Both the position numbers and the translations under genes were made by a program. A stretch of 59,859 bases of DNA, counting the filler, from Sanchytrium tribonematis (taxonomy: Eukaryota): NCBI GenBank assembly GCA_018985235.1. It is 5 parts of 5 records of this genome, joined end to end, with 100 filler letters (N's around TTAATTAATTAA, not from the genome) between each part and the next. Parts side by side here need not be neighbours in the genome. Positions count along the whole stretch, not along the records: positions 1 to 11,910 come from JADGIG010000239.1; 4 more parts are not named here. One strand, 5' to 3'. The first letter of the stretch is position 1. Each line of letters begins with the position of its first letter. Shown piece by piece: positions 1,322 to 21,479 of the stretch. The notes beneath the pieces are model-generated. The model had not been told where the DNA came from, did no database searches, and worked only from the letters and a program-made list of their open reading frames with translations.

Positions 1322-1343
1322 ATTTTGAATTTTTGAAACCGTA

Positions 1344-2474
1344 ATGAGTTCATCATCACAACCACTCGGAACTCAAAGATTTGGATTGGAGATCCCTGAC
1401 AACTTGCAAGATCTCTTAAGCTTTATTGAAGAAAGAATGAGATGCTCCATTTGCCTTTGCAATGTTAATGATCCCATGAGACTTCCTTGTAACCACATAA
1501 TGTGTCAGGAGTGCATGAAATCTGCGATTAAACACTCAAAAACTTGTCCTGAATGCAGGTCCAAATTTGTGCCTAGACAAGCTAAATTAATGAAAAATCT
1601 AGGCAGTTTTAGCGAAGAAATATCGGCCTTGTTACCCAAATTGAATGAATTTGTAAATTCAATTGAGATTGAACAACCCGTCACCTCTGTAAAGCGATCC
1701 TCGAAAATGGAGTTGCTTGTCCCTAGCAAAAGAAAAGCAACTCGTCCAAATGTACTAGGGAGTCCCAAGCCTAAGAGCAAAACATCAAAAAAGTTGGATA
1801 AAAAACTTGACGTAAAGAATATACCTTCTTCGCCTCCACCTTTAAGGCCATCTTCAATGTCCTCGAAGAGTTCTTTTAAAAAAACTGTAAGTTTTACAGA
1901 AGACGCACTTAATATAATGGAAATGAATACAGATGATATGCTTAACGACTCCCAAGTATTGGGGGAGCTTGACAAACTTATAAAATATGTAGAAGAAAAG
2001 AAAAATGTTACATTTTCAAATACCAATTCAAATGACATTCCTACAGATGAGGTTTTTGATCAAATGAGTCTGAGCCCTGCTATATATCTAGAAAAATCTC
2101 TTAGAAGCAAGAATCTTGATATTCAACATGAAGGAAATCTGGAAATAGTGGAACTTGTTATTATACCCGAAACAGAAACTCCTCACGAATTTATTTTGGA
2201 ATGTATGCTAACTATTGTTAATCAATGTAAGCTTCTTCGCTACAACGAGCCTCAAAATTTGAATTTATCTGATGGGATCAAACTTCCAACAAAAATTGCT
2301 AGTTTGAAAAATACAATTATTTACCACAAAAGCAGAAATGATTTGCTCTCCTTCATTGTAGAAGCTCAAGGAGGATTTGTTCTCGATCATTACCCTCATT
2401 TTAATCTAGCCAATACCCATAGAATAGTCAAAATTAAAAAGCTTTCTGAAATGAGCCAATTTTTATTGAATTAA
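1344..2474 (+). CDS. C3HC4 RING-finger protein, possibly BRCA1/BARD1-like with a degenerate C-terminal BRCT
   Basis: CSICL...LPCNHIMCQEC...CPEC RING motif; low-complexity middle; C-terminal IVEAQGGFVL resembles a BRCT motif. Confidence 0.7.
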   Translation: MSSSSQPLGTQRFGLEIPDNLQDLLSFIEERMRCSICLCNVNDPMRLPCNHIMCQECMKSAIKHSKTCPECRSKFVPRQAKLMKNLGSFSEEISALLPKLNEFVNSIEIEQPVTSVKRSSKMELLVPSKRKATRPNVLGSPKPKSKTSKKLDKKLDVKNIPSSPPPLRPSSMSSKSSFKKTVSFTEDALNIMEMNTDDMLNDSQVLGELDKLIKYVEEKKNVTFSNTNSNDIPTDEVFDQMSLSPAIYLEKSLRSKNLDIQHEGNLEIVELVIIPETETPHEFILECMLTIVNQCKLLRYNEPQNLNLSDGIKLPTKIASLKNTIIYHKSRNDLLSFIVEAQGGFVLDHYPHFNLANTHRIVKIKKLSEMSQFLLN

Positions 2475-2501
2475 TTTCTACATTGTAACTTTAAGTCTCC
2501 T

Positions 2502-3605
2502 ATGTTTGGTAATTTGGTAATAAATTCTGTTGTAGATCCTTCATCTCGAGTGCTAAATCGCAAAACTCTCCACAATTGTCTTGATTCTATAAAAAGTAAA
2601 ACAAAAGAAAACAATTTTGATGAATATTACTCCAATTGTAAAGTGAATGCAAGTGTCATAAATACCAGTTTGCGTGTGGAATACAACTGCTCGCTGCTGG
2701 ATAAATATAAATGGGAATGTGCGACAGAAGAGACTGATGATCTTGAGCGCTTTTTAAGACTGGTAGCCGAATATGCAGGCATGCATTTTTACCACCACGA
2801 TGACCAGTTTTTAACATCAAGTGAGATCATAATCATAGAGATATTTCAAACAAACAGGAATGTTGTTATACAATTTGCAAATTCAATCAAATTTGATCAA
2901 AGAATGGAAACTGTTTTAACAAAGCTACTAATTGAATACCCAAATATTTTTAAAGATGCTGTGACATACTTGGTACATCTAGAGTCTCAAAATGAATTAC
3001 AGAAATGGTCAGAGCTGATTTTAGAATGGAAGGAAACACCAATTTTGACAAAGTGGATTGGCCCTTCATTGGATTTTACATTTGATTATTTTGGGTATCA
3101 AAATGGTAATTGCATACAACTTAGTGACTTTGTTTTCGTAAATCGAGAATTTACAGATTCTTTGAGTCTAAATAAGGGAAATGCTGAATTAAAGTTGTCT
3201 GATTATCATTTGTTTGAAATACTTTGGAGCTATTTTAAAAAAACAAGTTCCGATTTTCCCAAATTAAATTCAGTGTGTGGTTCTATACAATTTGAAAGTT
3301 TGACTTCTGAGGCAGAAGTCGATCATCTAATTAAATTTACGGTGACAGAAAATTTTAATTATGAAGCATTTGCAACTAGCCTTAGTCCTTTCTTTAATTT
3401 GAAATATTTCATAGAAAACTTTTTTGTAGAGAATAATCAAGATTCAACTCGAGTTATTAAAATGGACATTAATTCTGATTTTTCTTTGACCTTTAAAGGT
3501 GAAAAAAGTACTACTGTAGCTTTTACTCCGACTCTTACAGTTAATAGACAGAAAATAACTAAATCAAGCAATTTTATTTCAATTTGCGAAAAACATATTA
3601 AATAA
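2502..3605 (+). CDS. Hypothetical protein
   Basis: 367-aa ORF filling the space between neighbours; no motif recognised. Confidence 0.6.
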   Translation: MFGNLVINSVVDPSSRVLNRKTLHNCLDSIKSKTKENNFDEYYSNCKVNASVINTSLRVEYNCSLLDKYKWECATEETDDLERFLRLVAEYAGMHFYHHDDQFLTSSEIIIIEIFQTNRNVVIQFANSIKFDQRMETVLTKLLIEYPNIFKDAVTYLVHLESQNELQKWSELILEWKETPILTKWIGPSLDFTFDYFGYQNGNCIQLSDFVFVNREFTDSLSLNKGNAELKLSDYHLFEILWSYFKKTSSDFPKLNSVCGSIQFESLTSEAEVDHLIKFTVTENFNYEAFATSLSPFFNLKYFIENFFVENNQDSTRVIKMDINSDFSLTFKGEKSTTVAFTPTLTVNRQKITKSSNFISICEKHIK

Positions 3606-3606
3606 A

Positions 3607-4021: not shown

Positions 4022-4886
4022 TTATTCTTTTTCTTTCTGAATCTGAGATACATCCATGCCTTCTTGTGGGACACCATAAAGCTCAATACCATCAATTTCC
4101 GTAACATCTCCTCCTCCAATATTGCTTTCTACAAATATCTATATTATTTAAAAGTACATTCAACTTTGGCACTCGTTGAAATTTTACATATTTGAGTTCC
4201 ACGAAAGCTCGGTAGATTTTATCTTCCAATTTGTAATCAGATTCGTTTAAAGTTAGATCTTGAACACAAGGAAGATCATCTACGTCTTCAAATGTCATTT
4301 GTTGATTATTGTAAAATTTTAAACTTTTTGGCGCTTTTTTTATATCTTTAACAGAAATTTCAAGGGAATGAACTTTAACAGTTGCGTTGAATGGCAAAGA
4401 TATAATAACTTGTTCATCGCAGTCACTTTCGAGCGAGCCTTTGCCTTCCAAAATTCCTAAAACACCCAAATTTTTCACATTTAATCCCTCTATTTGGTTT
4501 TTGAGGACAAATGGCTTGAGACTAAGAAATCCTGGCGGACCTTTTGTAGGTTGGCTTTGTACTTGGGATATTTCTGATAACTTTATCAACAATTGATCAA
4601 TTGCTGGAGGGTTAGCTCCAGAAACCGTTCCCACAACCTTGCCATTGTTGAATGTAATAAATGTTGGTATAGATTTAATTTGATATTGCTCAGCTATCTC
4701 TTTAAAATTGTCAATATTAATTTTAATAAATTTAACATTAGGATGCTTCGGTACTAGACTTTCCAGATGAGGTTGTATGGCTTTGCAAGGACCGCACCAT
4801 GAAGTATAAAAGTCAACAAGAACCGCCCCGCTGGACTTTCCTATAAAGGAATAAAACTCGTCTGAAGATAGAATATCTTGAATCAT
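4022..4886 (-). CDS. TXNL1: Thioredoxin-like protein 1 (Trx + PITH domain); two exons, 4886-4158 and 4138-4022
   Basis: WCGPC active site; PITH motifs LESDCDEQ and LKYVKFQ; splicing a 19-nt intron restores the C-terminus IFVESNIGGGDVTEIDGIELYG. Confidence 0.9.
4139..4157 (-). other. 19-nt spliceosomal intron in TXNL1
   Basis: GTACTTTTAAATAATATAG; phase 0; removal restores the PITH reading frame. Confidence 0.88.
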
Positions 4887-5032: not shown

Positions 5033-5858
5033 TTAAGATTTAACTTCATTGGATTTTAGTTTTATATTTAACTGCTCTTTTCGAGGAGCTTCGCTCACTT
5101 CCATTTCATCTTCTTTCTTCTCTAATATCGATCTTAATAGTAAAAGTTGTCGTGATTCAAAACTTTGTACATTTTTGGTTGTAGAATAAGGTGTCGAATA
5201 AATGGCATCTGGAAAATAATTTTCAATTTGACTGAAAAAGGTAAGCATTTGGTCATCGGTGTCCATTTGCTTAGACTCTTCTGTCACTGTTCTTGCCCTT
5301 TTCTGAAGCTGGGCCTCTGTTTGTTTAAATTGATGCAATGCAATAAGATCCTCAAAAGGTTTAGACCTTCCTGTGACGACACGTCTAAATTATTATTATA
5401 TACTTCATTGCAACTGAATGATTCTTGCAAGTGATAGATCTATAACAGGGTCCATTTTCTGTCATTACACCACAGTTTTTGTCCAGGTCCAAAACTCTAC
5501 TTTTTTTAATTTTCTTACTGCCGCTCGAAGGCCTTTTCCTTTTGACGGGAATTTTAGGATTTGAACCACTTTGTGGAACTTCTTTCTTTGGTGGTTCGTA
5601 ACTAAAATCTTCGTCTGCTCTAAATTGCTCTGGAACTTCAACTATTAGCGTCTGTTCATTATTGTGCGCTTTACGGCACTTATCGAAATGTTCCACAAAT
5701 CTAAGTGGTAAAATTACGCGACTACAAATTCCGCATTGAACAAGTTCCTTTTGTAAATATGGTATAAAGAGATCTTCGTCATTAGTTTCTGCCTCATCTA
5801 GCTCTATAGCCTCAATTTTAAAAGATTTTAAATAATTTTGGGCCCGAGAGAAATTCAT
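5033..5858 (-). CDS. SGF73: SAGA subunit Sgf73/Ataxin-7 (SCA7 zinc finger); two exons, 5858-5404 and 5384-5033
   Basis: N-terminal CGIC...HFDKC finger; DLDKNCGV...GPCYRSITCKNHS then, after splicing, MKRVVTGRSKPFEDLI completes the SCA7 domain. Confidence 0.85.
5385..5403 (-). other. 19-nt spliceosomal intron in SGF73
   Basis: GTATATAATAATAATTTAG; phase 2; removal joins two ORFs within the SCA7 domain. Confidence 0.9.
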
Positions 5859-6409: not shown

Positions 6410-6435
6410 TTTCTCCAAGTTTTGAAATCATATTT

Positions 6436-9099
6436 ATGCAAAATGAAATAAGTGATTTCTTATTACAATCCATAGGTATGACGGAAAACTCAATTGTTGA
6501 ATCTATATTAAGTCTTAAAGGAAAAACCAAGTCTGATATCCATGGCCATTTGCAAATGTTGTGTTTTCCATCTGACAAAGTTGATGATGCAGTAAGCCAA
6601 ATATACAGCATTTTGAACCCCAAGCAACAAATCGAGATTAAACCAATAGAAAAGAAAAAGTACATCGATGTGAGATTGAAATCTCGTCAAGATTACTTAA
6701 AGAAAAGAGAGAGTAAGCAATTAGCGTTTTTAAAGTACAAATTGGAAAAGAAAAGTGTAAAGGATGAGGGAGAAAAAATTTTTCATGAAAAAGTTGTCTC
6801 ACTCATCGAAGACCGAAAGAAACTCGAGCAGGAAATTTCTGAGATTGGTCAGGGATACCAGATGCCAGGCGAATATAATGATGAGGAAATGACACGTGCA
6901 CTTAAAGGAAAAACCAAGATTCTGGGAATATCGTATGATAAAATAGTTGACTGGGAAGAAATGCAGTTATTAAAAGCCGCGAAAGATATTGATAAAGATG
7001 AAGACTACGAATATTTGTTTGATGAAGACGAGCAAATTGCTTTCCTACTAGCATCACAATTAAATGGGGAAGAAGAAGAAAAAATGGATGTACCACAGAA
7101 ACATAATCAAGACATACAATCTATCCGGAAAAGTCTTCCAATATATTATTTTCGTGATAAAATTATAGAAATTATCAAAAGAAATAAAGTTACCATTCTT
7201 GTGGGAGAAACTGGTTCAGGAAAATCTACTCAAACTCCACAATATTTATTGGAATCAAAATTGTTTACTGGAATGATCGCAGTGACCCAACCTCGTAGAG
7301 TTGCTTGTCAATCTTTAGCTGACAGAGTTGCGAAAGAAATGAATGTTTTTTTAGGTAAAGAGGTTGGTTACACAATAAGATTTGAAGATAGAACTTCTCA
7401 CTCCACAAGAATTAAATTTTTAACTGACGGTGTTATTCTCAAGGAAATACAGGACGATCCGAAGTTGTCTCAATTTTCTGTCATTTTGATCGATGAAGCA
7501 CATGAAAGAACTACAAATACAGACGTGTTACTCGGGCTGCTTAAGGAAGTTTTGACTCTTCGGGACGACTTACATATAGTTATCGCATCAGCGACCCTAG
7601 ATTCTGAAAAATTTAGCTCTTTCTTCAATAATGCGCCTATAATTAAAATTCCGGGCAAAACTTTTCCTGTGGATATCTATTATACTCAAGCACCGGAGGC
7701 CAATTATATTGCGGCTGCAATTTCCACAATTATGCAAATTCACATTTCTCAACCCGTCCCAGGCGACATCTTGGTGTTTCTTACTGGACAGGAGGAAATT
7801 GAAAGTTGTAACGAAATGCTACAGGACATAATCAAAAAGACTGGAAACCGAATCAAAGAGCTGCTAGTATACCCAATATATGCTTCCTTGCCAAGTGAAC
7901 AGCAGTCTAAAATTTTTATCGAAACTCCTTTAAATGCTCGTAAAGTTGTCTTGGCAACTAACATTGCTGAAACCAGTATAACAATTGATGGTATCACCTA
8001 CGTTATAGATTGTGGGTTGCACAAGGAAATGTCTTTCCATCCCAAATCTGGAATTAGTAATCTAGAAATAGTTCCTGTTAGTAAAGCAGCAGCAAACCAA
8101 CGTGCTGGTAGAGCTGGCCGTACAAGACCGGGAAAATGCTTTCGTTTATATACTAAATGGGCATTTGACAACGAGCTTAAAGAAAACCCTACCCCTGAAA
8201 TAATGAGAACAAATTTAAGCTCAGTCGTCTTGCTTTTAAAATGCCTTGGAGTCGACCAAATTGAAACTTTTTCATTTCTTGATATTCCGCCTTTAAACGC
8301 CATTCAAAAATCTGTCCAATTGCTCATTGATTTAAATGCACTTGACAAACATCAGGTCTTGACAGCGGAAGGTCAAAAAATGGCAGAACTTCCATTGGAT
8401 CCACGAATGGCTAAAGTAGTACTCTCTAGCTCTGAGTTGCAATGTGCTGAAGATATCTGCACAATAGTTGCATTATTGACAATACAATCCCCAGTTTTTT
8501 ACAGACCTCGCTATAAAACTGAAGACGCTGACCTCAATAAGCGTTCGTTCTATCATCCGAATGGAGATCATATGACTCTTCTGAATGTTTGGAATCAGTT
8601 CCAAGACTCTAACTATTCTAGAGAATGGTGTTATGAAAAATTCATTCACTTCAAATCCCTACAACATGCCAAGAGCATTCGTGATCAACTCATGAGACTA
8701 CTGGATAAGCTGGGAGTCGCTCTGGATAATAATATTGGAGGTGATAATATCATAAAAGCATTTCTTCGTGGCTATTTCACCAATGTTTGCAGGCTCACGA
8801 ACGAAGGTTCCGTTTACAAACACGCTAAAGATGAAATCTTGGCTTTAATACATCCATCTTCGTCTCTTTATTTGAACATAAATTCCGAATTGAAAAGCGG
8901 TCAAACGAAAGTATTTAAGAAACCAAAGTGGGTCTTTTACAACGAGCTAGTACTGACCAGCAAAGAATACATGAGAATGGTGAGTGTCATTGACCCCACT
9001 TGGCTACTAGAGGCTACTTCTGCATTTTCCCAAGAAGAGCTAGATGCTTTGGAAGGAACCAAAAAAAGTTATAAGAGCACAGGATCATTTTTCGACTAA
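6436..9099 (+). CDS. DHX16: Spliceosomal DEAH-box helicase Prp2/DHX16
   Basis: GETGSGKS, TQPRRVA, DEAH, SAT, QRAGRAGR motifs; N-terminal SRQDYLKKRE typical of DHX16/Cdc28; YIAAAISTIMQIH. Confidence 0.9.
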   Translation: MQNEISDFLLQSIGMTENSIVESILSLKGKTKSDIHGHLQMLCFPSDKVDDAVSQIYSILNPKQQIEIKPIEKKKYIDVRLKSRQDYLKKRESKQLAFLKYKLEKKSVKDEGEKIFHEKVVSLIEDRKKLEQEISEIGQGYQMPGEYNDEEMTRALKGKTKILGISYDKIVDWEEMQLLKAAKDIDKDEDYEYLFDEDEQIAFLLASQLNGEEEEKMDVPQKHNQDIQSIRKSLPIYYFRDKIIEIIKRNKVTILVGETGSGKSTQTPQYLLESKLFTGMIAVTQPRRVACQSLADRVAKEMNVFLGKEVGYTIRFEDRTSHSTRIKFLTDGVILKEIQDDPKLSQFSVILIDEAHERTTNTDVLLGLLKEVLTLRDDLHIVIASATLDSEKFSSFFNNAPIIKIPGKTFPVDIYYTQAPEANYIAAAISTIMQIHISQPVPGDILVFLTGQEEIESCNEMLQDIIKKTGNRIKELLVYPIYASLPSEQQSKIFIETPLNARKVVLATNIAETSITIDGITYVIDCGLHKEMSFHPKSGISNLEIVPVSKAAANQRAGRAGRTRPGKCFRLYTKWAFDNELKENPTPEIMRTNLSSVVLLLKCLGVDQIETFSFLDIPPLNAIQKSVQLLIDLNALDKHQVLTAEGQKMAELPLDPRMAKVVLSSSELQCAEDICTIVALLTIQSPVFYRPRYKTEDADLNKRSFYHPNGDHMTLLNVWNQFQDSNYSREWCYEKFIHFKSLQHAKSIRDQLMRLLDKLGVALDNNIGGDNIIKAFLRGYFTNVCRLTNEGSVYKHAKDEILALIHPSSSLYLNINSELKSGQTKVFKKPKWVFYNELVLTSKEYMRMVSVIDPTWLLEATSAFSQEELDALEGTKKSYKSTGSFFD

Positions 9100-9100
9100 T

Positions 9101-9935
9101 TTACTCTAATGCTGCAGCTCCCGTAACAATATCACAAAGCTCATTGGTGATAGCCGCTTGTCTACCTCTATTGTAAAGTAAAGTTAAATTACCAATCATA
9201 TCACCCGCATTCTTAGTTGCATTTTCCATGGAAGTTCTTCTTGAAGCAATTTCGGAGGCATGACTTTCACACATCATAGAGAACAACTACATAAGATGTG
9301 ATTACCTTGGAGGCGTATAAAAATTCGGCAGCATTTTGAAAACTATCGCTCTCATTCTCATATTTTCCCAAATCAACGTCTTTAATTTTCTCTGGGGTTG
9401 GCAGTTCAACTGCTTTAGTTTCATAAGAAACAATTGACTTAAAATTGTTATAGACCACTTTATGCGAAACGTTTTTCAACTTTTCGTCAGCTAATAATGC
9501 ATCGGCTATCAAGCAAGCTTCCTGGAACACAGGCACATTTTTTCCAAGTTGATTAAATGAGTAAACGATTTTGCTCCTGTGTTCTCTTGACAATTGTGCT
9601 TTAGATTTGTCGCCAACAGCCACAATAAAATTTGGTTCTTTTACATTTCGTTTAATAAATTTGGTGATATTAGAATGAACACCACCACAAAGACCTCTGT
9701 CTGAGGTAATGCCAATGAAAACTGTGTTTTCACTCTTTGGCAGAACGGCATTTTTTTCCACTTCTACTTGTGCATCCCCAATCACTTTTGCAACTTCCAT
9801 GGCTCTCTGAGCTCTAGTCAACTTAGTTGTTGCAATCATCTTCATAGATTTAGTAATTTTTTCAATATTCTTTATAGATTTAAGACGCAATTGGATATCT
9901 TTCAAGGTAGCGTGTTGAACTCGAGAGCAAAACAT
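9101..9935 (-). CDS. ATP3: Mitochondrial F1 ATP synthase gamma subunit; two exons, 9935-9306 and 9286-9101
   Basis: [46 protein letters not shown] motifs. Confidence 0.95.
9287..9305 (-). other. 19-nt spliceosomal intron in ATP3
   Basis: GTAATCACATCTTATGTAG; phase 0; gives [17 protein letters not shown]. Confidence 0.92.
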
Positions 9936-10192: not shown

Positions 10193-11354
10193 ATGAGTTT
10201 CAGTTTTGCAAATAACAATTCTGGCTTTGGTACTCAACCAAAAACTACATTCGGCCAAGCTCAACCCCAAAGTACTTCGGGCTTTTCCTTCGGCCAAACA
10301 GGACAGTCTTCAGGGTTTGGACAACAGCCAACTGAGTTTGGTCAACATTCCTCAGGATTCGGCGGTCAACAGCAAAATTCCGGTTTTGGACAGCAGCAGA
10401 ATACGGGAATAGGTCAAATTAATAATCAAGGAACTGGATTTGGTTTTAATAATCAACAATCGAATACTACTGCTTTTGGTCAACAAAATATTTCTTCCGG
10501 ATTCGGACAACAAAATGCAAGCTTTGGTAGTCAACCCGGTTTTGGTAATAAATCAGTAGGGTTTGGCTTTGGAAACACACAACAGCAAAGTGGAATTGGT
10601 TTTTCTTTTGGTCAACAACCCCAACAAAACGGCTTTCAGAATCAATTTACCCAGCAAAATCAACCACCAACAAATCCGCCCATTGTGTCGGATCTACTTG
10701 AAGCTTATGGATCGTTTATGGATCCAACTAAGTCAGTGTTTATCCATCCATTTTATAATTTGGTCCATCCAAATGACAAACAGACATATGGAAAACCACC
10801 ACAAGTGAATGAGCTGCTTTACCAACAAGCACAACAAGCTGCACCGGATGAGAATTTTGTTGTTGCATTTGCTTTAGGCCCTGGAGATGTTAAGAATAGA
10901 CTAAATATTCAAAACGAAAAATTTGTAGATCTTGAAAATAGAGTCGCTTCTATTGAAACAGAGGTTGGCACTGTATCTAAAAGCATCTCTGAATATTCTT
11001 CTAGAATTGAGAGTATGAAAAGAAAACATTTAAATTTAATTGAAAAGACTACTCAGGTATTTTAGACTTATTCAGATGTACACAAAACTGTCTATATATC
11101 AAAGAAGTACGCTAACTCAGGGTGAATTGGAACTTTATGACCGTTTCAAAGAACTTCACGATAAATCACAAAAGATCAATATACAAGGAAGATTGCAAGA
11201 GCCAGAGGCTTTTGACATTGATGAAGAAGCAGTTCCAGTCTTTTATGAGACTTTATCTGAAATGAATGACAGAATTCGAAATTTAACGTCGAAAATCCAA
11301 AAAGATATTAAAGTAATGTTGGAAATGAATTCTTTACTCACCAACATCAAATAA
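10193..11354 (+). CDS. NUP57: FG nucleoporin Nup57/Nup54; two exons, 10193-11056 and 11076-11354
   Basis: FG/Q-rich N-terminus; FYNLVHP...KPPQVNELLYQQA...GPGDVKNR alpha/beta region; coiled-coil C-terminus. Confidence 0.85.
11057..11075 (+). other. 19-nt spliceosomal intron in NUP57
   Basis: GTATTTTAGACTTATTCAG after exon-end CAG; phase 0; removes an in-frame TAG. Confidence 0.88.
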
Positions 11355-11355: not shown

Positions 11356-11910
11356 TTACATAAAAGCTAGTCTTTTGAGATTTTCATAACCAGTAAGTTT
11401 TTCAGTATTTGTTAGTCTTTCAAATTGAAAAGGTGTATTTGGTGGCGGATTGAATTTAAATGTGGTTATGACTAGTGGATCATCTGCTGGGAGTGCAGCA
11501 ATGGATTTCTTTCTAGGAACTGGAGGAGGAACGGGATTTCGCTTTGCCGGTGGAGGGGGTGGGGGTTTTCTTTTGCTCGCAGATGATCTGCGATCTAAAA
11601 ATTCTCCTGAACCAAGACTTTCTCTTGAAGCACTCAATGAAGTTGGTTTGGACGGAGACTTGGGAGGATTTAAAGAAGAAGGTGCTAAAGCCTCTATGGA
11701 AGAGTTTGGAATCTTTTGGGGCAATATAGGAGGCAGTGTAGAAGGCGGTGACACTGGAGATTTTGATGGGAAAGCTGGAACAGAGGGCGGAGGAATGTTG
11801 GGAATATTTTGAGGGGGTCGGAGCGGGATTTGTCCAGATATCGGCAAATTAGGTCTTATACTGGGAACAGGTGGCCGTGATATCGGCACATTAGTTTTGG
11901 ATTGTTCTTG
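11356..11910 (-). CDS. Partial proline-rich protein (verprolin/WIP-like or other SH3-ligand protein); 5' end truncated by the contig edge
   Basis: Multiple PPPPP and PxxPxR motifs; frame open to the gap. Confidence 0.6.
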   Translation of the reverse strand, partial: QEQSKTNVPISRPPVPSIRPNLPISGQIPLRPPQNIPNIPPPSVPAFPSKSPVSPPSTLPPILPQKIPNSSIEALAPSSLNPPKSPSKPTSLSASRESLGSGEFLDRRSSASKRKPPPPPPAKRNPVPPPVPRKKSIAALPADDPLVITTFKFNPPPNTPFQFERLTNTEKLTGYENLKRLAFM

Positions 11911-12010
11911 NNNNNNNNNNNNNNNNNNNNNNNNNNNNNNNNNNNNNNNNNNNNTTAATTAATTAANNNNNNNNNNNNNNNNNNNNNNNNNNNNNNNNNN
12001 NNNNNNNNNN
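11911..12010. other. Artificial contig linker
   Basis: N run + TTAATTAATTAA (stops in all frames) + N run, 100 nt. Confidence 0.98.
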
Positions 12011-12228
12011 TTGTTTAATTGTTCCATTTCTGTTACATTAAATGCAGATGCTACAGTTTCAATGCCATGTTTTTCCAATTCAAATCCATTTTCATCAAAT
12101 CTACAACTATGCTGCACCAAATTATACTTTGTCGAAATAGTTCTTGATCCAATATTTTGACATCCCATTGTTTTTAAATCAATAGATTCAAATGAAAACA
12201 CATTTAAAATGGCAATCAACATGCACAT
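12011..12228 (-). CDS. Partial paralog of the secreted CmcJ/NvfI-like protein family
   Basis: MCMLIAILNVFSFESIDL...C...FELEKHGIETV parallels YESLDFTQC...FDLKQHGIQII of the adjacent gene. Confidence 0.65.
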
Positions 12229-12313
12229 GTAAACAACAACGTCTTTCGAACATGATTTGTACCCAGTTGTAACTGCTAATGTCCAATCAGCATCTTGTAG
12301 CACATCACAAAAT

Positions 12314-13099
12314 TTATTTGTAATCATTTGTTTCCACGCGTTCTTTAAATCTAAATTCAATAGATTGTCTATCAAATTCTATCCCATAATCTACAGATGA
12401 ATGGAAATAATAATTTGAATTAAAAACAATGGCATCTCCAGTCTCAATATCTTCAAATACAATGGCATCATAATTATGATCATTTTTTGGAATTAATATT
12501 CTTAAATCTTCAACGACAGCTGTGTGATCATCATCACCAGGTCCAATAAAATGTAAATTATGATTTTTAATGGGTTTCCCTAAATTAACCCACACATTAA
12601 AGGTTTCTTCTTGTTTCATTTCTTCAGCAAATAATGTCTGTCTACTCTGTCCATTATTCCAATCTGTTCCCATAAATTCACTTCCAATGATATCTTGATG
12701 AAATAGGGTAATGGGTGCTCTATTGCCATATCCTAATCTTGAATCTCTTGAAGTAAAATCAACACAACACATTTGCATTCTAAATTTGTCTTCCAATATG
12801 TCTTGAATTTTCTCACATTTGCCAATCTTTATTTCTTCGTTATTCCTCACTAAATCTTGAACATCTTTGAAATTGAATATACCTTTTATAATTTGAATTC
12901 CATGTTGTTTTAAATCAAATGAATTTTCATTTGCATTACATGTCTGGTTTCTTAATCTGTAAATGAGTTCATCTCTCTCAAGTTCTTTCTTATATTCGTC
13001 ATTTAATTTGGCAAATATAGTGACAATATCTTCACTCTGGCTACATTGTGTAAAATCTAATGATTCATACGCCATTATATTTATCAGAATAGCCCACAT
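12314..13099 (-). CDS. Signal-peptide protein with CmcJ/NvfI (AsaB-like) Fe(II)/2-oxoglutarate oxygenase motifs
   Basis: Hydrophobic start MWAILINIMA; FDLKQHGIQI, HQD, NVWVNLGKPIKNHNL, GDAIVF, FHSS, RQSIEFR. Confidence 0.7.
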   Translation of the reverse strand: MWAILINIMAYESLDFTQCSQSEDIVTIFAKLNDEYKKELERDELIYRLRNQTCNANENSFDLKQHGIQIIKGIFNFKDVQDLVRNNEEIKIGKCEKIQDILEDKFRMQMCCVDFTSRDSRLGYGNRAPITLFHQDIIGSEFMGTDWNNGQSRQTLFAEEMKQEETFNVWVNLGKPIKNHNLHFIGPGDDDHTAVVEDLRILIPKNDHNYDAIVFEDIETGDAIVFNSNYYFHSSVDYGIEFDRQSIEFRFKERVETNDYK

Positions 13100-13360
13100 G
13101 ATGATGTGGATCGTGATTTGGTTTTGATTTGAAATTGTAATTTGTGTTTCAATTAGAGCCAATCAAATCATTGTACAAGAATACACAAGTAAATTGTGAC
13201 TAGTCATTACATTAGACATTTCAAATCATTGAAAAGTGATTTACTTGACTGACTGATCACGCTGATTGATTTCAAGAATTTAGCACATTCTGTGATTGGT
13301 TCCTTTTATGAATCTGTCTGAGATTGTATTCAAAAAGAGAATGGATCCCCTGTTGGAATA

Positions 13361-13741
13361 ATGATTTTGATTTTATTTGCATTCATGGTATATGGAGGAG
13401 AAGGTCCAGTAGAAGGTATTTCACTAGAAGGTGATCGAGGGCGAGATCCAAATCCAAATGCACGAGAAGGTGAATCTGGTACGTATACTTTAACAAATCC
13501 GGGAGAACCTGTAGAATTCGGTGATCCTTTAAAGTATAATCTAAAGCAGCAAGAATCAGTAGATACAGCCAAGAAAGAACTCATGGATAAAATTAAAGAC
13601 AAGTTTCCAAGTCGAAAAACCATTGAGAAATATGTATCGAGTGCACTTGCTATTGCAGCAGTAATTGCCATTATTGCATTTCTCATTGGTGCCATGATTG
13701 ATATGAAAGATCATCCAGGAACCACTTATGTGACACCACCA
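13361..13741 (+). CDS. Signal-peptide plus single-TM protein; 3' end probably replaced by the LINE insertion
   Basis: MILILFAFMVYGG; acidic/Pro linker; TM ALAIAAVIAIIAFLIGAM; same architecture as genes at 26978 and 27680; the ORF runs into the antisense LINE tail. Confidence 0.6.
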
Positions 13742-13768: not shown

Positions 13769-16700
13769 TCAATTGTCTCGCCCCTCTCGTGCTCTCTCTG
13801 CCTGTGCCTCGGTTTCTGCTATGCATTTTCTAGTAAATACCCTCATTTTACCTAGTTGCTTGCGAATTGCATCTCGCATTTTATTGGTTGCATCCAACCA
13901 TTTTACAGCACGACCAAAAGTCATCCGTCCATCACACATATATAAATCCTGTAGTGCATATTCTTCTAATACTAATGTATACTTGTTGGTGTACAAAACA
14001 AATGGATGATTTTGAGTTGGTTGTAAACTGCACAGATAATCCGCCAAGTTATTTGGCAAGCAGTTACTATGCCCTTTGACCCATTTTAATTCAATATTCT
14101 TGATATTGGGGTTGGTCTGCTGGATAATATCAATGGAACTGATTTTTCGAAAGGAAATATTTTCCTGATAATTTTTGATGGTTTCAATTGCTCCCCGTGA
14201 ATCGCTGCAAATCATCACATCTAATTCCCAATTAATGCGAGTATCGTTACATGCCAGACATATTGCAAGTATTTCAGCACGAGTACTAGAATCAATGATT
14301 AAATCACTGACTTCAAATGACTCAAAATACACACCATTATCAGAGATGATGACGTAGCTTGCCCATCCAAATTTACCCACTTTGGATCCATCTGTGTATA
14401 CCATTACTTTATCAGGTACAATATAATCACTCAATAAACCATGATTTCCTCGTATAATCCTATTTAATTGGATCAAATCGTCTCGTGAATTTGACATGCC
14501 ATAATTGGCAGACACGTATTCTTCCGTCATATTAGCAAAGAAACAGTGTAATACACCTGATTTATGCTCATGAGTGCCATTACAGTTATCACATTCCACA
14601 GAAACACGTGGGATTTGCTTTTTAATAAATGGAATTAATCCTCTGTATTTCTCTTCTACTTGATAATACTGCTTAATGGGTTGCATTGAATACTTCATAG
14701 TGGGTACATATGCTGTATTTCCATTTGATTCCTTGCCAACTCTGTGATTATTCCATTTTATGTGCAATCCACACCAACGAGTGTAGTAATCTGTAAAAGC
14801 AAACATGTCATAGATGTCTTCTAATTTCGTATCACCAGCAGTACCGGAGAAATCTCTCACTGTGGTCAATATGAACGAATTTATGCGTCTAGCCAACTTG
14901 GCATCTGGTTCAAATATTTGAAGTGAATAATCAAGTATTGGGACTAAATACGTTTGTATTGTCTTCATTATCAACTCCATCTTGATGCCACTATATTTAA
15001 AGATTCCGGCACGCACCAGATTTGTCTTTTTAGCATACGCCTTTTCTAGATTCCATTTAATTTGAGTCTTTTTACACAATCCCTTACGATTTAATGCTAT
15101 TCCAAGGTACTTCTTGTACATATCACTGTCAATAACCTCTGTTTTATCATTATTTAGTTCCAAACCAATGCTTTTTAATCTTCTTTTCAAATCAGATTCA
15201 ACTTGATGGCGATAACCTGAACGAGTGAGCAGTATTATGTCATCCGCAAATACAACAATATGGCTATTGCTAGTATCCCAATTATCTAGTGCATTATCCA
15301 GCACTTTTGCAAAAATACCCGGACTTGCTTTTCCCCCTTGTATCACGCCAGATGACGTTGCAAACCCACTGGAGTAGTACTTTCCCAGTTTGATTTTAAG
15401 TACTTGATCCTTTACTAGATTCCAAAGTGCCCTTTTCCAAACAGTATCCAAATTTAAGTCCAGGATCATGCTCAGAATGGCAGATCTTTTCAAGGTATCA
15501 AAAGCCTGCCTTGCATCATATTTTACAATCAACCAACCAGGATGCGCTTTAATCAATTCGTTGAGGTCATAAGCAGCATCAAGGCAACTTGAATTCTTCT
15601 TGAAGGCATATTGCTTGTCAGATGTCTCCAATTCGACTCCCAGCATCTGGAGCAATAAACCTTCAAATAATTTACGTAAATGACTAGCCAAAGCGATTGG
15701 GCGATGGCAATCAATCCTCTCCTTTCTCCCTCTCTTAAAAATTGGCACTATTGATATATTTATGAAGATATCTGGAAATATCCCACATTTGATAATCAAG
15801 TTAAATAAGTCCAAGATGGCTCTGACTCCACTTGCTGGTAGATATTTAATCATCTCATTGGTCACTAGGTCTTCACCAGCACTTTTTCCCATCGGCAATT
15901 GACTGATTTGGATCATCATGTCACTAAATAGGAATTGGGCTTCTGGATCATCATGGCTGTGAATGAACCATCGACATGGCTCTAATTTGTCATCAGCATT
16001 CCATTTTGCCTGCCATACCTCTTGATAATCCTCCAATTTGTCCACTTTTAACTCGGATTTGTTTTGGAACTTGTGAGAACTGCGATTGGATGTTTCTTTA
16101 ATAAACTCAATTCTATTCTGTTTACAGCGTCTATTACGCCAGTTGTCAAGTCTATTCTTCTTCAATTTCTTGATTTTACGTCTAATAGTGTGAGTAAATC
16201 CAGATTTGAGTAATTCTTCCCCAATTTCCTCTTCTTCTGCTGTAAAATCTACTGCCTGTCTAACATTGCTATATTTACATATTTTACCAGCCGATTGGAC
16301 TATCCCATCCACTAATTTCAATGATGCTTTATTTAAATCGTCTTTGATGCGTTTTTCATCATGATCTGGATGAATTTGGTTAATGATGTTATAGTAGTTC
16401 CTAAAATCAAAGTGATTCTCAAAGTGCTCTTCATATTCCTGCTTTCTGTCGTGGAGTAAATAAGATTTGATTTTTGATTCTTTTTCACGGGGTTGTATTG
16501 CAACATCCAATTTCAATGTCAAAATAATCATTGAATGCTCACTCAATTCAGTACGCACAGCGGTGATATCTCTCACAAAGTGAAGGACATTTCCGTTTCC
16601 AGTGGCATGATCAATGTTTGATTCCCGAATCCCATTTTTAGTGTATTTGATAAATGTAGAGTCTGGTGGCTTATCAATCAGTACCTGTCCAAGACTGAAC

Positions 16701-17647
16701 AGTCTATCCATCATTGCATATTCAATAGACAATTTGGCACGGGCCAGATTCAAGTTCCAATCCCCTATGATGATGGTCTTTTTATCCACCCATTTGGCAA
16801 GTTTTTGATTAAAAAACTCCATTTTATCAACATCTCGAGAAGCAGGCAGATAGATAGCGAGAATATTTAGATTATCATTCAATTTTAGCTTGATATGATA
16901 TGGGGAAATGGAGATGACCATATCCGACAAATCAAGATTTCCATACTTGGGATTAACAGTCATACACATCCCGTAATTATTTTTAATTGTATCTGATGCT
17001 ACTCTACACCACCTAGGGGCTTTTCGCAATCCATTCATCTTTGTCTCAGAACAGATAACAATATCCACATTTTCACGTCTATGAAGCTTGTAAACACCAT
17101 AGTGACTGCCTTGAAAGCCATTTACATTGAAATATGCCACCTTGAGAGACGATTTATCCAAATTTTCAATTTTATGGCGACTTCCTCCTTTCAATTCACC
17201 AGCAGCAAACAGCACATCTAGATGCCTAATATGGGTATTGACATCCACTCTTCTACCATTTAATAAAATTTTACACTTTTTGAACCAAAACGGAAATATT
17301 TCTGAAATATTGAAATTTTCATCTACCCATTTTATGTGTCTTTTGCCATTCCAAAGACGCAATTCAATGCATTTTTGCTTACTGATATGTTTGAAAGAAG
17401 TATTATAGGCTTTAATTGACGACGATTTAGTGATTTTGCAATTTTGCTTGAAATCTTGAAAATCAGTCAAATTCCCTGTTGTTTCAAAAAATCCACCAAA
17501 AATGCCCATGAGTGGGAGAAATGACAAGAATATTACCGCAAAATAAAGCAGTTCAAATTGGTTGAAGGTGTCAATATCTTCATAGACTCGTTCAAAGTGA
17601 AAACATATATCCACACGGCAAATTTTTTCCAATTCCAAATGTGTCAA
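13769..17647 (-). CDS. LINE pol-like ORF: hydrophobic segment, ubiquitin-like domain, APE endonuclease, reverse transcriptase, Cys/His motif, RNase H
   Basis: APE: YFNVNG, SETK, GDWN, SNIDH, SEH. RT: HRPIAL, QYAF, DARQAFD, GVIQG, FADD, KYLG. RNase H: YTDGS, RAEI, SDS, WVKGH, NNLAD. Confidence 0.92.
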   Translation of the reverse strand: MTHLELEKICRVDICFHFERVYEDIDTFNQFELLYFAVIFLSFLPLMGIFGGFFETTGNLTDFQDFKQNCKITKSSSIKAYNTSFKHISKQKCIELRLWNGKRHIKWVDENFNISEIFPFWFKKCKILLNGRRVDVNTHIRHLDVLFAAGELKGGSRHKIENLDKSSLKVAYFNVNGFQGSHYGVYKLHRRENVDIVICSETKMNGLRKAPRWCRVASDTIKNNYGMCMTVNPKYGNLDLSDMVISISPYHIKLKLNDNLNILAIYLPASRDVDKMEFFNQKLAKWVDKKTIIIGDWNLNLARAKLSIEYAMMDRLFSLGQVLIDKPPDSTFIKYTKNGIRESNIDHATGNGNVLHFVRDITAVRTELSEHSMIILTLKLDVAIQPREKESKIKSYLLHDRKQEYEEHFENHFDFRNYYNIINQIHPDHDEKRIKDDLNKASLKLVDGIVQSAGKICKYSNVRQAVDFTAEEEEIGEELLKSGFTHTIRRKIKKLKKNRLDNWRNRRCKQNRIEFIKETSNRSSHKFQNKSELKVDKLEDYQEVWQAKWNADDKLEPCRWFIHSHDDPEAQFLFSDMMIQISQLPMGKSAGEDLVTNEMIKYLPASGVRAILDLFNLIIKCGIFPDIFINISIVPIFKRGRKERIDCHRPIALASHLRKLFEGLLLQMLGVELETSDKQYAFKKNSSCLDAAYDLNELIKAHPGWLIVKYDARQAFDTLKRSAILSMILDLNLDTVWKRALWNLVKDQVLKIKLGKYYSSGFATSSGVIQGGKASPGIFAKVLDNALDNWDTSNSHIVVFADDIILLTRSGYRHQVESDLKRRLKSIGLELNNDKTEVIDSDMYKKYLGIALNRKGLCKKTQIKWNLEKAYAKKTNLVRAGIFKYSGIKMELIMKTIQTYLVPILDYSLQIFEPDAKLARRINSFILTTVRDFSGTAGDTKLEDIYDMFAFTDYYTRWCGLHIKWNNHRVGKESNGNTAYVPTMKYSMQPIKQYYQVEEKYRGLIPFIKKQIPRVSVECDNCNGTHEHKSGVLHCFFANMTEEYVSANYGMSNSRDDLIQLNRIIRGNHGLLSDYIVPDKVMVYTDGSKVGKFGWASYVIISDNGVYFESFEVSDLIIDSSTRAEILAICLACNDTRINWELDVMICSDSRGAIETIKNYQENISFRKISSIDIIQQTNPNIKNIELKWVKGHSNCLPNNLADYLCSLQPTQNHPFVLYTNKYTLVLEEYALQDLYMCDGRMTFGRAVKWLDATNKMRDAIRKQLGKMRVFTRKCIAETEAQAERAREGRDN

Positions 17648-17689
17648 ATAAATCTTTCTTTTTAGCTGATACTTAGTGATTGTATTGAC

Positions 17690-18250
17690 TTAGCAATGCT
17701 TTATGGCATCAAAATGAACAAACATGACTGAATTTGTTATATTTTCCTGTTTTGACATTCTAAGATTATAATAAAGTTCTTCAGCTGAATCTTTTAATCG
17801 TTGTATCTCACATTTAACTATATCTGGATGTTGTTTAATTACAGACATCCAATAAAACTCATCAATTCCTACAAATTGCATGTTGGAATAGCGATTTTTT
17901 AATTTTGAAAAAATTTTGATGATTTTTGGCAAGTATTTTTTCTTGCAAATTATCTCTATGAAATCTCCGTTATAAATGGATCGCATTTCATCAAAATAAT
18001 GGGCGCTACCTTTGAATCTGCCCCAAAGGTACCTACGCAATGACTTTGCACATATATCTGGTGGCACATTTGCCAAAATAAATCTTTTATGTTTTCTCAT
18101 GTCATAATACGCGTAAGTATTATTGGGTTTGCAATGAATAGTAAAATGACTATTCGTTTCTCTGTTCAAATGTGAAAATGAACTGTTTATTATGCGCGAA
18201 AATTGACGCAATCGAGGCGGATCTTCCAAATCGAAATCCCCTCGTGTCAT
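17690..18250 (-). CDS. LINE ORF1-like region, in frame with pol across a single TAA
   Basis: 186-aa ORF directly upstream of pol; homologous decayed copy near 19130-19500. Confidence 0.65.
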   Translation of the reverse strand: MTRGDFDLEDPPRLRQFSRIINSSFSHLNRETNSHFTIHCKPNNTYAYYDMRKHKRFILANVPPDICAKSLRRYLWGRFKGSAHYFDEMRSIYNGDFIEIICKKKYLPKIIKIFSKLKNRYSNMQFVGIDEFYWMSVIKQHPDIVKCEIQRLKDSAEELYYNLRMSKQENITNSVMFVHFDAIKHC

Positions 18251-20110: not shown

Positions 20111-20149
20111 GTAAACATGAAGCAATTTGGTACTTAAATATTGATGTTC

Positions 20150-20900: not shown

Positions 20901-21479
20901 ATCACTCTGTATATTGAAACGAATTGTATTTCAACAAATTTGTCAGTATAAAATCTCTTTGAGAATATGCTTAAACTTGCAATTGTAAACAATGGATGAG
21001 GACCAATTACGAGTTGCAGCTGTTTTGGAGTGCTTGAATAACGCAATTGTACCATTTGTTGTGATTTCAAGGGGTCATCGCTAATCTGGTAAGCATTGAT
21101 GTTATTTATTGCAAATTCAGATTCAAATTCGGGAATTGCCATCTATTTAAAAGCCGATGTCACTAAATTTGAATCAGTCTAAACTTGAAAATGTGCGAAT
21201 TTAGACCGTCCAATTCATATACCCAATTTTGTTAAAGTCGGGACCGTTACTTTGATGTTGGGATTGATTTGGTTGCAACTCATTTGGATCATTTGAGATT
21301 ACGTGATGATAAAGAGATCTCAATGGACCATCCTCGTGTATTTGACTTGGAAGAGAAAGAAGAATAAATAAATAAGTGTAATAAAATCTCATTAAAGTTA
21401 CATATAAGCTAAGATAATAAATTTGGCAGCTGTCTACTACATTGTAACCATTGGATTGTTTATGACAGACCGTTTCATA

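What the first reader, a model, noticed from the sequence alone, without database searches (positions are those of the whole stretch)
9287..9305. Branch point fused to the acceptor: invariant T(-8), A(-6), T(-5) in all six tiny introns
Seen: the 3' ends are TAATATAG, TAATTTAG, TTATGTAG, TTATTCAG, TAATTTAG and TTATATAG, giving the consensus TWATNYAG, with C at -9 in three cases. All six start GTA, and there is no polypyrimidine tract. Inference: (C)TWAT is a degenerate CTRAY branch site with the branch A at -6, giving a lariat loop of only about 14-15 nt. An A at -6 is also the reported branch position in Stentor tiny introns, so this would be convergence. U1 and U2 could hardly bind simultaneously, which predicts altered or lost U1/U2AF components.
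Basis: partly seen in the sequence, partly recalled or inferred. Interest (0 to 1): 0.75.

Follow-up and report, generated by a model that had tools for sequence, protein, structure and literature searches.

The report
Nineteen-base introns in a sanchytrid-like fungus
Six genes in this stretch of a fungus related to the algal parasite Amoeboradix are interrupted by inserts only 19 or 20 bases long that all end in the same eight-letter signal, which likely holds the branch-point adenosine six bases before the cut, an arrangement described so far for giant ciliates and not for fungi.

Summary
The window has six GTA...YAG inserts (five of 19 nt, one of 20 nt) at ORF junctions, and all six end in TWATNYAG.

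- **Not chance:** the 19-nt pattern occurs 5 times against 0.56 expected, and every hit is an intron. Three invariant interior columns have shuffle p=0.002. None of 17 sense-strand GTA..YAG decoys in coding sequence carries TWAT.
- **Junctions:** removal restores Pfam domains. For TXNL1 and Arp8 the product matches intronless orthologues of relatives without a gap; ATP synthase gamma matches full-length fungal homologues likewise.
- **Organism:** not a ciliate. The closest named relative is the sanchytrid fungus Amoeboradix gromovi (55-75% identity).
- **Relatives:** their unspliced ORFs stop at the same sites. All 3 informative read-through tails back-translate to the same motif.
- **Branch point:** T(-8)/A(-6)/T(-5) fits a UnAy branch site. 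Stentor's putative branch A is also sixth from the end (PMC9505925). Actual branching is untested.
- **U1/U2AF loss:** not testable here, and Stentor keeps these components.
- **Literature:** I found no description of sanchytrid nuclear introns.

This scan earlier noted tiny introns on other DNA (Rozella 26-31 nt, Neolecta about 38 nt), but not this class.

The parts
9287..9305 (-). Intron 3, the finding itself: 19 nt, phase 0, in the mitochondrial ATP synthase gamma gene. The TTATGTAG acceptor block is 9287..9294 and A(-6) is at 9292.
   Evidence: Pfam ATP-synt covers profile 1-207 in exon 1 and 226-285 in exon 2. The spliced product aligns without a gap to full-length Blastocladiella gamma. 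Three relatives' ORFs stop right after the same ...FLYASK + V.
4139..4157 (-). Intron 1: 19 nt, phase 0, in the thioredoxin-PITH (TXNL1-like) gene. It ends TAATATAG and A(-6) is at 4144.
   Evidence: PITH profile 4-135 ends exon 1 and 137-172 begins exon 2. The intronless relative P0198 aligns gap-free across ...VPKLN^IFVES....
5385..5403 (-). Intron 2: 19 nt, phase 2, in a Sgf11/SCA7 zinc-finger gene. It ends TAATTTAG and A(-6) is at 5390.
   Evidence: SCA7 profile 5-43 lies at the end of exon 1 and 46-66 at the start of exon 2. Retention gives a stop after 6 codons.
11057..11075 (+). Intron 4: 19 nt, phase 0, in an FG-repeat Nup54-like nucleoporin gene. It ends TTATTCAG and A(-6) is at 11070.
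   Evidence: Nup54 profile 1-88 ends 2 residues before the donor, and 101-135 starts at residue 9 of exon 2. Retention gives a stop after 2 codons.
41734..41752 (-). Intron 5: 19 nt, phase 1, in a multi-PAS-domain gene. It ends TAATTTAG and A(-6) is at 41739.
   Evidence: It joins ORFs of 342 and 223 codons. The PAS_3 profile runs to position 72 of 89 at the last residue but one of exon 1. The exact donor is less firmly fixed than for introns 1, 3 and 6, because a 34-nt GTG alternative shares the acceptor.
58129..58148 (+). Intron 6: 20 nt, phase 0, in the Arp8 gene. It ends TTATATAG and A(-6) is at 58143. The extra base lies upstream of the motif.
   Evidence: Exon 1 aligns to solved Arp8 chains up to residue 388 of 389. 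Two intronless relatives (P0124, P0125) align gap-free across ...IIAPF^LLFNDHLF....
9101..9935 (-). Host gene of the finding: mitochondrial ATP synthase gamma. Exon 1 is 9306..9935 and exon 2 is 9101..9286.

Best explanation
These are six GT-AG inserts of 19-20 nt whose removal restores conserved proteins exactly, so they are almost certainly spliceosomal introns of a sanchytrid-like fungus, and their shared 3' octamer TWATNYAG is likely a branch site fused to the acceptor, with the invariant A at -6 predicted to be the branch nucleotide.

Shown:
- The termini, lengths and motif.
- The motif's specificity within the window.
- Restoration of domains and gap-free fit to intronless orthologues.
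- The fungal affinity.
- Conservation of intron positions in relatives.

Inferred:
- An ordinary U2-type spliceosome recognises three short elements at a near-fixed spacing: GTA at the donor, U-n-A-y at -8..-5 paired weakly with U2, and YAG.
- Branching at A(-6) would give a 14- or 15-nt loop with a 5-nt tail, the same tail as proposed for Stentor.
- The first AG after the motif is used as acceptor.
- The 19/20 length is never a multiple of three, so a retained intron would shift the frame. It meets a stop within 2-21 codons in 5 of 6 cases, which would expose unspliced mRNA to decay.
For: 1. Real introns:
- Pfam profiles continue across five junctions.
- TXNL1 and Arp8 match intronless orthologues of relatives without a gap, and ATP synthase gamma matches full-length fungal homologues likewise.
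- ORFs of Amoeboradix and unnamed relatives end at the same codon followed by V (GTN) in ATP synthase gamma, TXNL1 and Arp8.

2. The motif is a constrained signal:
- 5 pattern hits against 0.56 expected, all at introns.
- No hits at lengths other than 19/20 join long ORFs.
- Shuffle p=0.0023 for three invariant columns.
- 6 of 6 introns against 0 of 17 coding decoys carry TWAT. By my arithmetic the Fisher p is about 1e-5.
- All 3 informative read-through tails of relatives fit GTA..TWATNYAG at a single length (19, 19, 20), against 37 of 3838 random GT sites.

3. Branch reading:
- The invariant positions are those of UnAy, with -7 free.
- C at -9 occurs in exactly the 3 introns with T at -7. 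That would add a pair with U2 where the -7 pair is lost (recalled U2 pairing, inference).
- The motif is anchored to the acceptor, not the donor. Aligned from the 5' end there are no invariant interior columns.
- Stentor's putative branch A is also 6th from the end, and its commonest intron ends TTATATAG (PMC9505925).

4. Conventional machinery is likely: a Prp2/DHX16 orthologue is encoded at 6433..9096.
Against: - There is no RNA evidence of any kind, so splicing itself and the branch nucleotide are both inferred.
- Only six introns from one 60-kb window were available. The motif was derived from the same six, so the pattern-enrichment test is partly circular.
- The cross-species support rests on back-translation of peptides, not on DNA.
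- A branch 6 nt from the acceptor would be closer than the positions I counted from the published fused motifs of Giardia/Trichomonas and Spironucleus (-8 and -9 by my count, from the motifs quoted).
- Every intron also has other adenosines at -9 to -11 that could branch.
- The donor is only GTA, with G at +5 in 0 of 6. That is unlike the strong donors usual in intron-poor species, so recognition may involve something other than the standard U1/U6 pairing.
Confidence: 0.6

Rival explanations
1. TWATNYAG is an extended acceptor signal read by a protein or by another RNA contact, not the branch site. The branch would use another adenosine, such as -10 or -11, or the first step would not use a fixed branch.
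For: A is present at -10 in 4 of 6 and at -11 in 3 of 6 introns, and every intron has at least one A at -9..-11. A 5-nt branch-to-acceptor tail is very short. Hypotrich ciliates splice small introns without a conserved branch A (PMC10946202), and nucleomorph 18-21 bp introns have none discernible (PMC6009652).
Against: Only -6 is invariant among the adenosines. The invariant set T-n-A-T is exactly the branch consensus shape. The same -6 position is the proposed branch in Stentor.
Confidence: 0.22
2. Introns are defined mainly by length (a 'caliper' of 19-20 nt between GTA and YAG), and the 3' motif is a by-product of AT-rich composition and a small sample.
For: The length range is very narrow, with 5 of 19 nt and 1 of 20 nt. 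The caliper idea was proposed for nucleomorph introns of the same size (PMC6009652). Only six introns were available.
Against: Seventeen GTA..YAG strings of 19/20 nt lie in the sense strand of conserved coding sequence and cannot be spliced without destroying the proteins, so length plus ends is not enough. Shuffle p=0.0023. The motif recurs in relatives.
Confidence: 0.07
3. The inserts are not spliceosomal introns. They could be assembly or sequencing errors, programmed frameshift sites, or short DNA elements removed at the DNA level.
For: No transcript data exist for this window.
Against: All six have GTA...YAG ends and one length class. The same positions interrupt the genes in at least three other genomes, while some relatives have clean intronless versions. 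Errors would not share a 17-bit motif.
Confidence: 0.03

Closest known systems
Tiny introns of heterotrich ciliates (Stentor coeruleus 15-16 nt; also Blepharisma and Fabrea, 15 bp). Sources: PMC9505925 passages, PMC13685798 sections 6 and 13, PMC9004412 passages.
   Same: GTA donor and nothing more at the 5' end. AU-rich interior. Putative branch A sixth from the 3' end, leaving a 5-nt tail. Very narrow length range, in an intron-poor compact genome with the standard genetic code. Stentor's commonest intron ends TTATATAG, which fits TWATNYAG.
   Different: The length is 19-20 nt, not 15-16, so the predicted loop is 14-15 nt, not 10-11. None of the six is a multiple of three, whereas heterotrichs are dominated by 3n introns (abstract). 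The Stentor branch region is said to lack a strong consensus, while here T(-8) and T(-5) are invariant. The host is a fungus, so any likeness is convergent.
Introns with the branch point fused to the 3' splice site in Giardia, Trichomonas and Spironucleus (PMC6679479, passages read).
   Same: Intron-poor genomes. Invariant distance from branch motif to acceptor. No polypyrimidine tract between them. The motif can be used to find introns by pattern search.
   Different: Those introns are longer, have an extended 7-nt donor, and have a 12-13-nt ACTAAC-type block with the branch A further from the AG. Here the donor is minimal, the block is 8 nt and the whole intron is 19-20 nt.
Chlorarachniophyte nucleomorph introns (Bigelowiella natans, 18-21 bp; PMC6009652, passages read).
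   Same: The same length class, AU-rich, with canonical GT-AG ends.
   Different: Nucleomorph introns have no discernible branch adenosine or other motif and are very dense, about 3 per gene. Here there is a clear motif and only 6 introns in 60 kb.
Ultra-short introns of myxobolid myxozoans (median 22-27 bp) and Dicyema japonicum (PMC13644364, abstract and Results part 1).
   Same: [quoted passage not shown]
   Different: Those are longer with broader length distributions, and their A residues move away from the AG as length grows. Here the motif is fixed at -8..-5 and the introns are shorter than the reported animal minimum.
Tiny introns noted earlier in this scan in other Holomycota: Rozella allomycis 26-31 nt (e1-9886595) and Neolecta about 38 nt (e1-7127295). 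These are unchecked AI notes.
   Same: Fungal or fungus-like hosts, with GTA-only donors and a narrow length range.
   Different: Both are longer. The Rozella note reports no evident branch consensus.

Membership tests
U2-type (GT-AG) spliceosomal introns | GT at the 5' end and AG at the 3' end | tested here: met
   6 of 6 are GTA...YAG.
U2-type (GT-AG) spliceosomal introns | Removal restores an uninterrupted, conserved coding sequence | tested here: met
   Pfam continuity holds at 5 junctions. TXNL1 and Arp8 fit intronless orthologues of relatives gap-free, and ATP synthase gamma fits full-length fungal homologues.
U2-type (GT-AG) spliceosomal introns | Branch-site consensus (UnAy/CTRAY, recalled) upstream of the acceptor | tested here: met
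   T-n-A-T at -8..-5 in 6 of 6. This is sequence only; use as a branch is untested.
U2-type (GT-AG) spliceosomal introns | Polypyrimidine tract between branch site and AG | tested here: not met
   Only 2 nt (N,Y) lie between the motif and AG.
U2-type (GT-AG) spliceosomal introns | Donor complementary to U1/U6 beyond +3 (GTAAGT/GTATGT type, recalled) | tested here: not met
   Positions +4..+6 are CTT (three times), TAT, ATC and TTT. G at +5 occurs in 0 of 6.
U2-type (GT-AG) spliceosomal introns | Excision from RNA as a lariat | not testable with these tools
   No RNA holder was listed and no genome is held.
Heterotrich-ciliate-type tiny introns (Stentor) | Length 15-16 nt | tested here: not met
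   The lengths are 19 (five introns) and 20 (one).
Heterotrich-ciliate-type tiny introns (Stentor) | Conserved A sixth from the 3' end (5-nt tail) and a GTA donor | tested here: met
   A(-6) in 6 of 6 and GTA in 6 of 6. The Stentor positions come from PMC9505925.
Heterotrich-ciliate-type tiny introns (Stentor) | Host is a heterotrich ciliate, with dominance of 3n lengths | tested here: not met
   The best named relatives are Amoeboradix gromovi, then Blastocladiomycota and other fungi. None of the 6 lengths is divisible by three.
Fused branch point + 3' splice site introns (Giardia/Trichomonas/Spironucleus) | Invariant branch-motif-to-acceptor distance | tested here: met
   The motif is at -8..-5 in 6 of 6, including the 20-nt intron.
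Fused branch point + 3' splice site introns (Giardia/Trichomonas/Spironucleus) | Extended conserved donor of about 7 nt and an ACTAAC-type block of 12-13 nt | tested here: not met
   Only GTA is conserved at the donor. The -11..-5 heptamers are AAATAAT, TAATAAT, ATCTTAT, GACTTAT, ATTTAAT and TACTTAT.
Chlorarachniophyte nucleomorph introns | 18-21 bp with no discernible internal motif, and very high intron density | tested here: not met
   The length fits, but a motif is present and the density is 6 per 60 kb. The genes are nuclear housekeeping genes of fungal affinity.

The most novel reading that the evidence does not exclude
An entire fungal phylum, Sanchytriomycota and its kin, has remodelled its nuclear introns into a 19-20-nt class, the shortest in any opisthokont. 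This class carries the same branch-to-acceptor module as heterotrich ciliates: branch A at -6 and a 5-nt tail. It has gone unnoticed because the published proteomes were called as plain ORFs. Two lineages as far apart as fungi and ciliates reaching the same module would point to a universal minimal geometry of the spliceosome's catalytic centre.
Probability: 0.45. Interest if true: 0.82.

Novelty: new variant of a known kind. Interest (0 to 1): 0.7.

Why it matters
- **A new size record if confirmed.** These would be the shortest spliceosomal introns known to me in fungi and in opisthokonts. They are below the 22-bp median reported as the animal record (PMC13644364). They are in the size class of nucleomorph introns but have a readable branch-like signal.
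- **A test of spliceosome limits.** A second, independent lineage with the Stentor-type 5-nt tail would help test how small a lariat and how short a branch-to-acceptor distance the spliceosome tolerates.
- **A practical consequence for annotation.** The sanchytrid genome paper called proteins with TransDecoder on contigs, and its main text mentions introns only in a reference title (PMC8371127). Intron-bearing genes are therefore truncated in those proteomes. In Amoeboradix, ATP synthase gamma is 214 aa against about 281, Arp8 382 against about 620, and TXNL1 262 against about 284. This could bias gene-content and completeness estimates used to argue for reductive evolution.

Tried and rejected
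- **Ciliate origin.** This was my first reading. Homology rejected it: the best hits are Amoeboradix and then fungi.
- **Whole genome.** None is held, so no genome-wide logo and no snRNA or splicing-factor census could be made.
- **RNA evidence.** No RNA holder was listed for window 3600-11300.
- **Rfam scan of the window.** No family reached its gathering score.
- **DNA of relatives.** The metagenome scan with ATP synthase gamma exon 1 gave 80 loci, the best at 54% identity, with no sanchytrid-like DNA. The genome-contig scan with Arp8 gave none.
- **Other intron candidates examined and dropped:**
  - The 16-nt GTAG..ATAG at 12379..12394 lies between two tandem paralogous genes, each with its own start.
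  - The 20-nt candidate at 20323..20342 lies in an ORF-poor stretch with no coding signal.
  - The 18-nt GTG.. string at 59090..59107 encodes the conserved CPxC region of NUBP.
  - The 19-nt string at 13409..13427 lies inside an open frame.
- **Formal alternative junctions.** GT-AG alternatives exist at every junction. Homology picks the 19/20-nt form for introns 1, 3 and 6, and Pfam continuity favours it for 2, 4 and 5.
- **Stentor genome paper.** It was not held. I used PMC9505925 instead.
- **Literature searches.** These found nothing on sanchytrid nuclear introns:
  - 'Amoeboradix'+'intron' (9 papers)
  - 'Sanchytri'+'introns' (6 papers)
  - 'Sanchytriomycota'+'genome assembly' (7 papers)
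  - 'shortest introns'+'fungi' (11 papers)
  
  Supplements of PMC8371127 were not read.

Full report
**What is at the coordinates.** Window 9287..9305 read on the minus strand is GTAATCACATCTTATGTAG. It lies between two minus-strand ORFs that together encode mitochondrial ATP synthase gamma. Pfam ATP-synt covers profile 1-207 in the upstream ORF and 226-285 in the downstream one. The window is AT-rich (about 34% GC), tightly packed with genes and read by the standard code (ORFs of 905 to 1371 codons). It contains masked N runs.

**The six introns.**
- I scanned for every GTA...YAG string of 15-30 nt with open frames on both sides, without using the 3' motif.
- The scan flagged six sites whose 3' ends fit TWATNYAG.
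- Phases are 0, 2, 0, 0, 1, 0.
- Retention meets a stop after 2-21 codons in five cases and after about 75 codons in the sixth.
- The host genes are a thioredoxin-PITH (TXNL1-like) protein, a Sgf11/SCA7 zinc-finger protein, ATP synthase gamma, a Nup54-like FG nucleoporin, a multi-PAS protein and Arp8.

**Are the junctions right?**
- Pfam profile coordinates run on across the junctions: PITH 4-135 then 137-172; SCA7 5-43 then 46-66; Nup54 1-88 then 101-135, with 10 residues between; PAS_3 reaches position 72 of 89 at the last residue but one of exon 1.
- Three junctions are fixed to the base by homologues.
  - TXNL1: an unnamed relative (P0198, 59% identical) is intronless. It aligns without a gap across ...VPKLN^IFVES....
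  - Arp8: two unnamed relatives (P0124, P0125, 64-65% identical) are intronless. They align without a gap across ...IIAPF^LLFNDHLF....
  - ATP synthase gamma: the spliced product aligns gap-free with full-length Blastocladiella proteins.
- Formal alternative GT-AG pairs exist at each site. They would delete or insert conserved residues.

**More than chance?**
- GTA-N8-TWATNYAG occurs 5 times on both strands against 0.56 expected, and 0 of 100 shuffles reach 5. All five hits are introns.
- The 20-nt version occurs once against 0.46 expected. That intron therefore rests on the orthologue alignment, not on the count.
- With the motif kept but the length varied from 13 to 40 nt, only the 19- and 20-nt hits join long ORFs.
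- Shuffling the interior of each intron gives three or more invariant columns in 0.23% of 200,000 trials. Aligned from the 5' end there is no invariant interior column.
- In 29.3 kb of confident coding sense strand there are 17 further GTA..YAG strings of 19 or 20 nt. None has TWAT at -8..-5, and 6 of 17 have A at -6, near background.
- By my arithmetic, 6 of 6 against 0 of 17 gives a Fisher p of about 1e-5.
- One decoy, at 57667..57686 in the conserved VVDDLLDR stretch of Arp8, ends TTAGACAG. It differs from the motif at -5 and -3.
- Caveats: the motif was derived from the same six introns, and whether the decoys stay unspliced is inferred from protein conservation.

**No other introns found.**
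- The 16-nt candidate at 12379..12394 separates two tandem paralogues with their own starts.
- Histone H4, V-ATPase c, ubiquitin-L40, mitochondrial uS10 and the others read as single ORFs.
- 18300..23900 has no coding signal.
- So the window holds 6 introns in roughly 40 genes, all of one class. Short 5' exons without the motif could have escaped me.

**The organism.**
- I first took this for a ciliate. Homology says otherwise.
- ATP synthase gamma exon 1 finds EukProt EP00835 Amoeboradix gromovi at 75% identity and two unnamed relatives at 73-76%. The next hits are Blastocladiella, Paraphysoderma and other early fungi at about 50%.
- Arp8 and TXNL1 find Amoeboradix at 65% and 55%.
- The published sanchytrid genomes are 10.5 and 11.2 Mb with 36.3 and 34.6% GC (PMC8371127, Table 1 as shown). 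This fits the window.
- I therefore call the source a sanchytrid-like fungus and do not name a species.

**Conservation in relatives.**
- The relatives' proteins in the database are plain ORFs that read into the intron.
- All three ATP synthase gamma relatives end just after ...FLYASK with V....
- Amoeboradix Arp8 ends after ...VAPF with VILANIAAV.
- Three TXNL1 relatives end after ...VPKLN with V....
- Intron positions are thus shared by at least four genomes, while some relatives lack the TXNL1 or Arp8 intron.
- I back-translated the read-through tails against GTA..TWATNYAG for lengths 15-24.
  - The three tails long enough to be informative fit at one length only: Amoeboradix TXNL1 at 19, Amoeboradix Arp8 at 19, and P0004 ATP synthase gamma at 20.
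  - Three shorter tails fit 20 (and also 23 and 24). One is uninformative.
  - Among 3838 GT sites of the window with 8 or more codons of read-through, 37 fit at 19 or 20.
- This is inference from peptides, not DNA. It does suggest the motif is conserved across species.

**Mechanism.**
- The invariant T(-8), A(-6), T(-5) with a free -7 has the shape of the general branch consensus (UnAy, CTRAY; recalled).
- The -11..-5 heptamers are AAATAAT, TAATAAT, ATCTTAT, GACTTAT, ATTTAAT and TACTTAT. That is 3-5 potential pairs with the U2 branch-recognition sequence, counting wobble (recalled pairing scheme, inference).
- C at -9 occurs in exactly the three introns with T at -7. This could compensate for the lost pair, but with n=6 it is only suggestive.
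- The motif is tied to the acceptor: in the 20-nt intron the extra base is upstream of it.
- In intron 4 an earlier AG, at intron positions 8-9, is skipped. This fits use of the first AG after the motif.
- Branching at A(-6) would give loops of 14 and 15 nt and a 5-nt tail.
- In Stentor the putative branch A is the 10th of 15 nt (90.9% of all introns) or the 11th of 16, giving a 10-11-nt loop with a 5-nt tail. Its commonest intron ends TTATATAG (PMC9505925, passages).
- Nucleomorph introns of 18-21 bp differ: they show no branch signal (PMC6009652).
- A branch fused to the acceptor is itself a known design in Giardia, Trichomonas and Spironucleus, with longer motifs and strong donors (PMC6679479).

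**What is not supported.**
- The prediction that U1 or U2AF must be altered or lost could not be tested, because there is no genome and no snRNA gene in the window.
- It is not compelled either. Stentor keeps all snRNAs, the core U1 proteins and U2AF1/2. Myxozoans keep U2 and U2AF. The window encodes a clear Prp2/DHX16 orthologue (E 7e-223 to human DHX16), the helicase that frees the branch site before the first step (role recalled).
- 'No polypyrimidine tract' is true only downstream of the motif. The interior is 55% T and 2% G, with T runs just after GTA in four introns.

**Novelty.**
- The sanchytrid genome paper predicted proteins with TransDecoder on contigs. In its main text the word 'intron' occurs only in a reference title (PMC8371127).
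- Four full-text searches found nothing on nuclear introns of sanchytrids. I did not read supplements.
- Earlier notes of this scan report tiny introns in Rozella (26-31 nt) and Neolecta (about 38 nt). These are unchecked, and neither is this class.
- The kind, ultra-short introns with a branch-like A close to the acceptor, is known. The lineage, the 19-20-nt length and the sharp T-n-A-T signal are new as far as I could find.

**Verdict.** The branch-site reading is plausible and better supported than its rivals, but it is untested at the RNA level. The spliceosome-loss prediction is open and not needed.

Noticed in passing
window 6433..9096 (+): An intronless 888-aa DEAH-box helicase. Its best match is human DHX16/yeast Prp2 (E 7e-223), ahead of Prp22, Prp43 and Prp16. 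This is a core spliceosome activation factor encoded right next to the intron-bearing ATP synthase gamma gene.
   Followed up: partly
window 13772..18265 (-) and 18300..23900: A LINE-like retroelement. A 1306-codon ORF carries reverse transcriptase and RNase H domains. It is preceded in the same frame by a 191-codon ORF, separated from it by a single stop codon. About 5.5 kb without coding signal follows, possibly decayed element copies.
   Followed up: partly
window 33280..34248 (-): A 323-codon ORF with an ISXO2/IS1595-type DDE transposase domain (E 1e-12). Its codon-usage score is lower than that of neighbouring genes. This is a bacterial-type transposase family in a fungal contig.
   Followed up: no
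relatives P0198 (TXNL1), P0124 and P0125 (Arp8) versus the window and Amoeboradix: Intron presence varies among close relatives. The TXNL1 and Arp8 introns are present in the window and in Amoeboradix but absent from some unnamed relatives. So there has been recent precise intron loss, or gain, within the clade.
   Followed up: partly
proteins P0001, P0122, P0196 (window) and P0002, P0123, P0199 (Amoeboradix): The database proteins for these genes are unspliced ORFs that read into the intron and end early or in nonsense. For example, ATP synthase gamma is 214-222 aa instead of about 281. ORF-only proteomes of this group are truncated at every intron.
   Followed up: partly
window 57667..57686 (+): A near-miss decoy inside conserved Arp8 coding sequence (VVDDLLDR). 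It is a 20-nt GTA...CAG string ending TTAGACAG, with T(-8) and A(-6) but G at -5 and A at -3. It would be a natural test case for which motif positions matter.
   Followed up: partly
window 11962..13162 (-): Two tandem paralogous genes of unknown function share motifs such as F[DE]L[KE][QK]HGI. The second runs into a masked N run and then a proline-rich ORF (11359..11910).
   Followed up: partly
window 1329..3602 (+): Two ORFs of 381 codons (RING finger) and 376 codons lie in the same frame, separated by one stop codon. They may be separate genes or a read-through pair.
   Followed up: no
window 11911..12010, 23917..24016, 35904..36003, 47886..47985: Paired 44-nt N runs occur at regular spacing of about 12 kb. 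This looks like masking rather than assembly gaps. One pair interrupts a DEAD_2 (XPD/RTEL-like) helicase gene.
   Followed up: no
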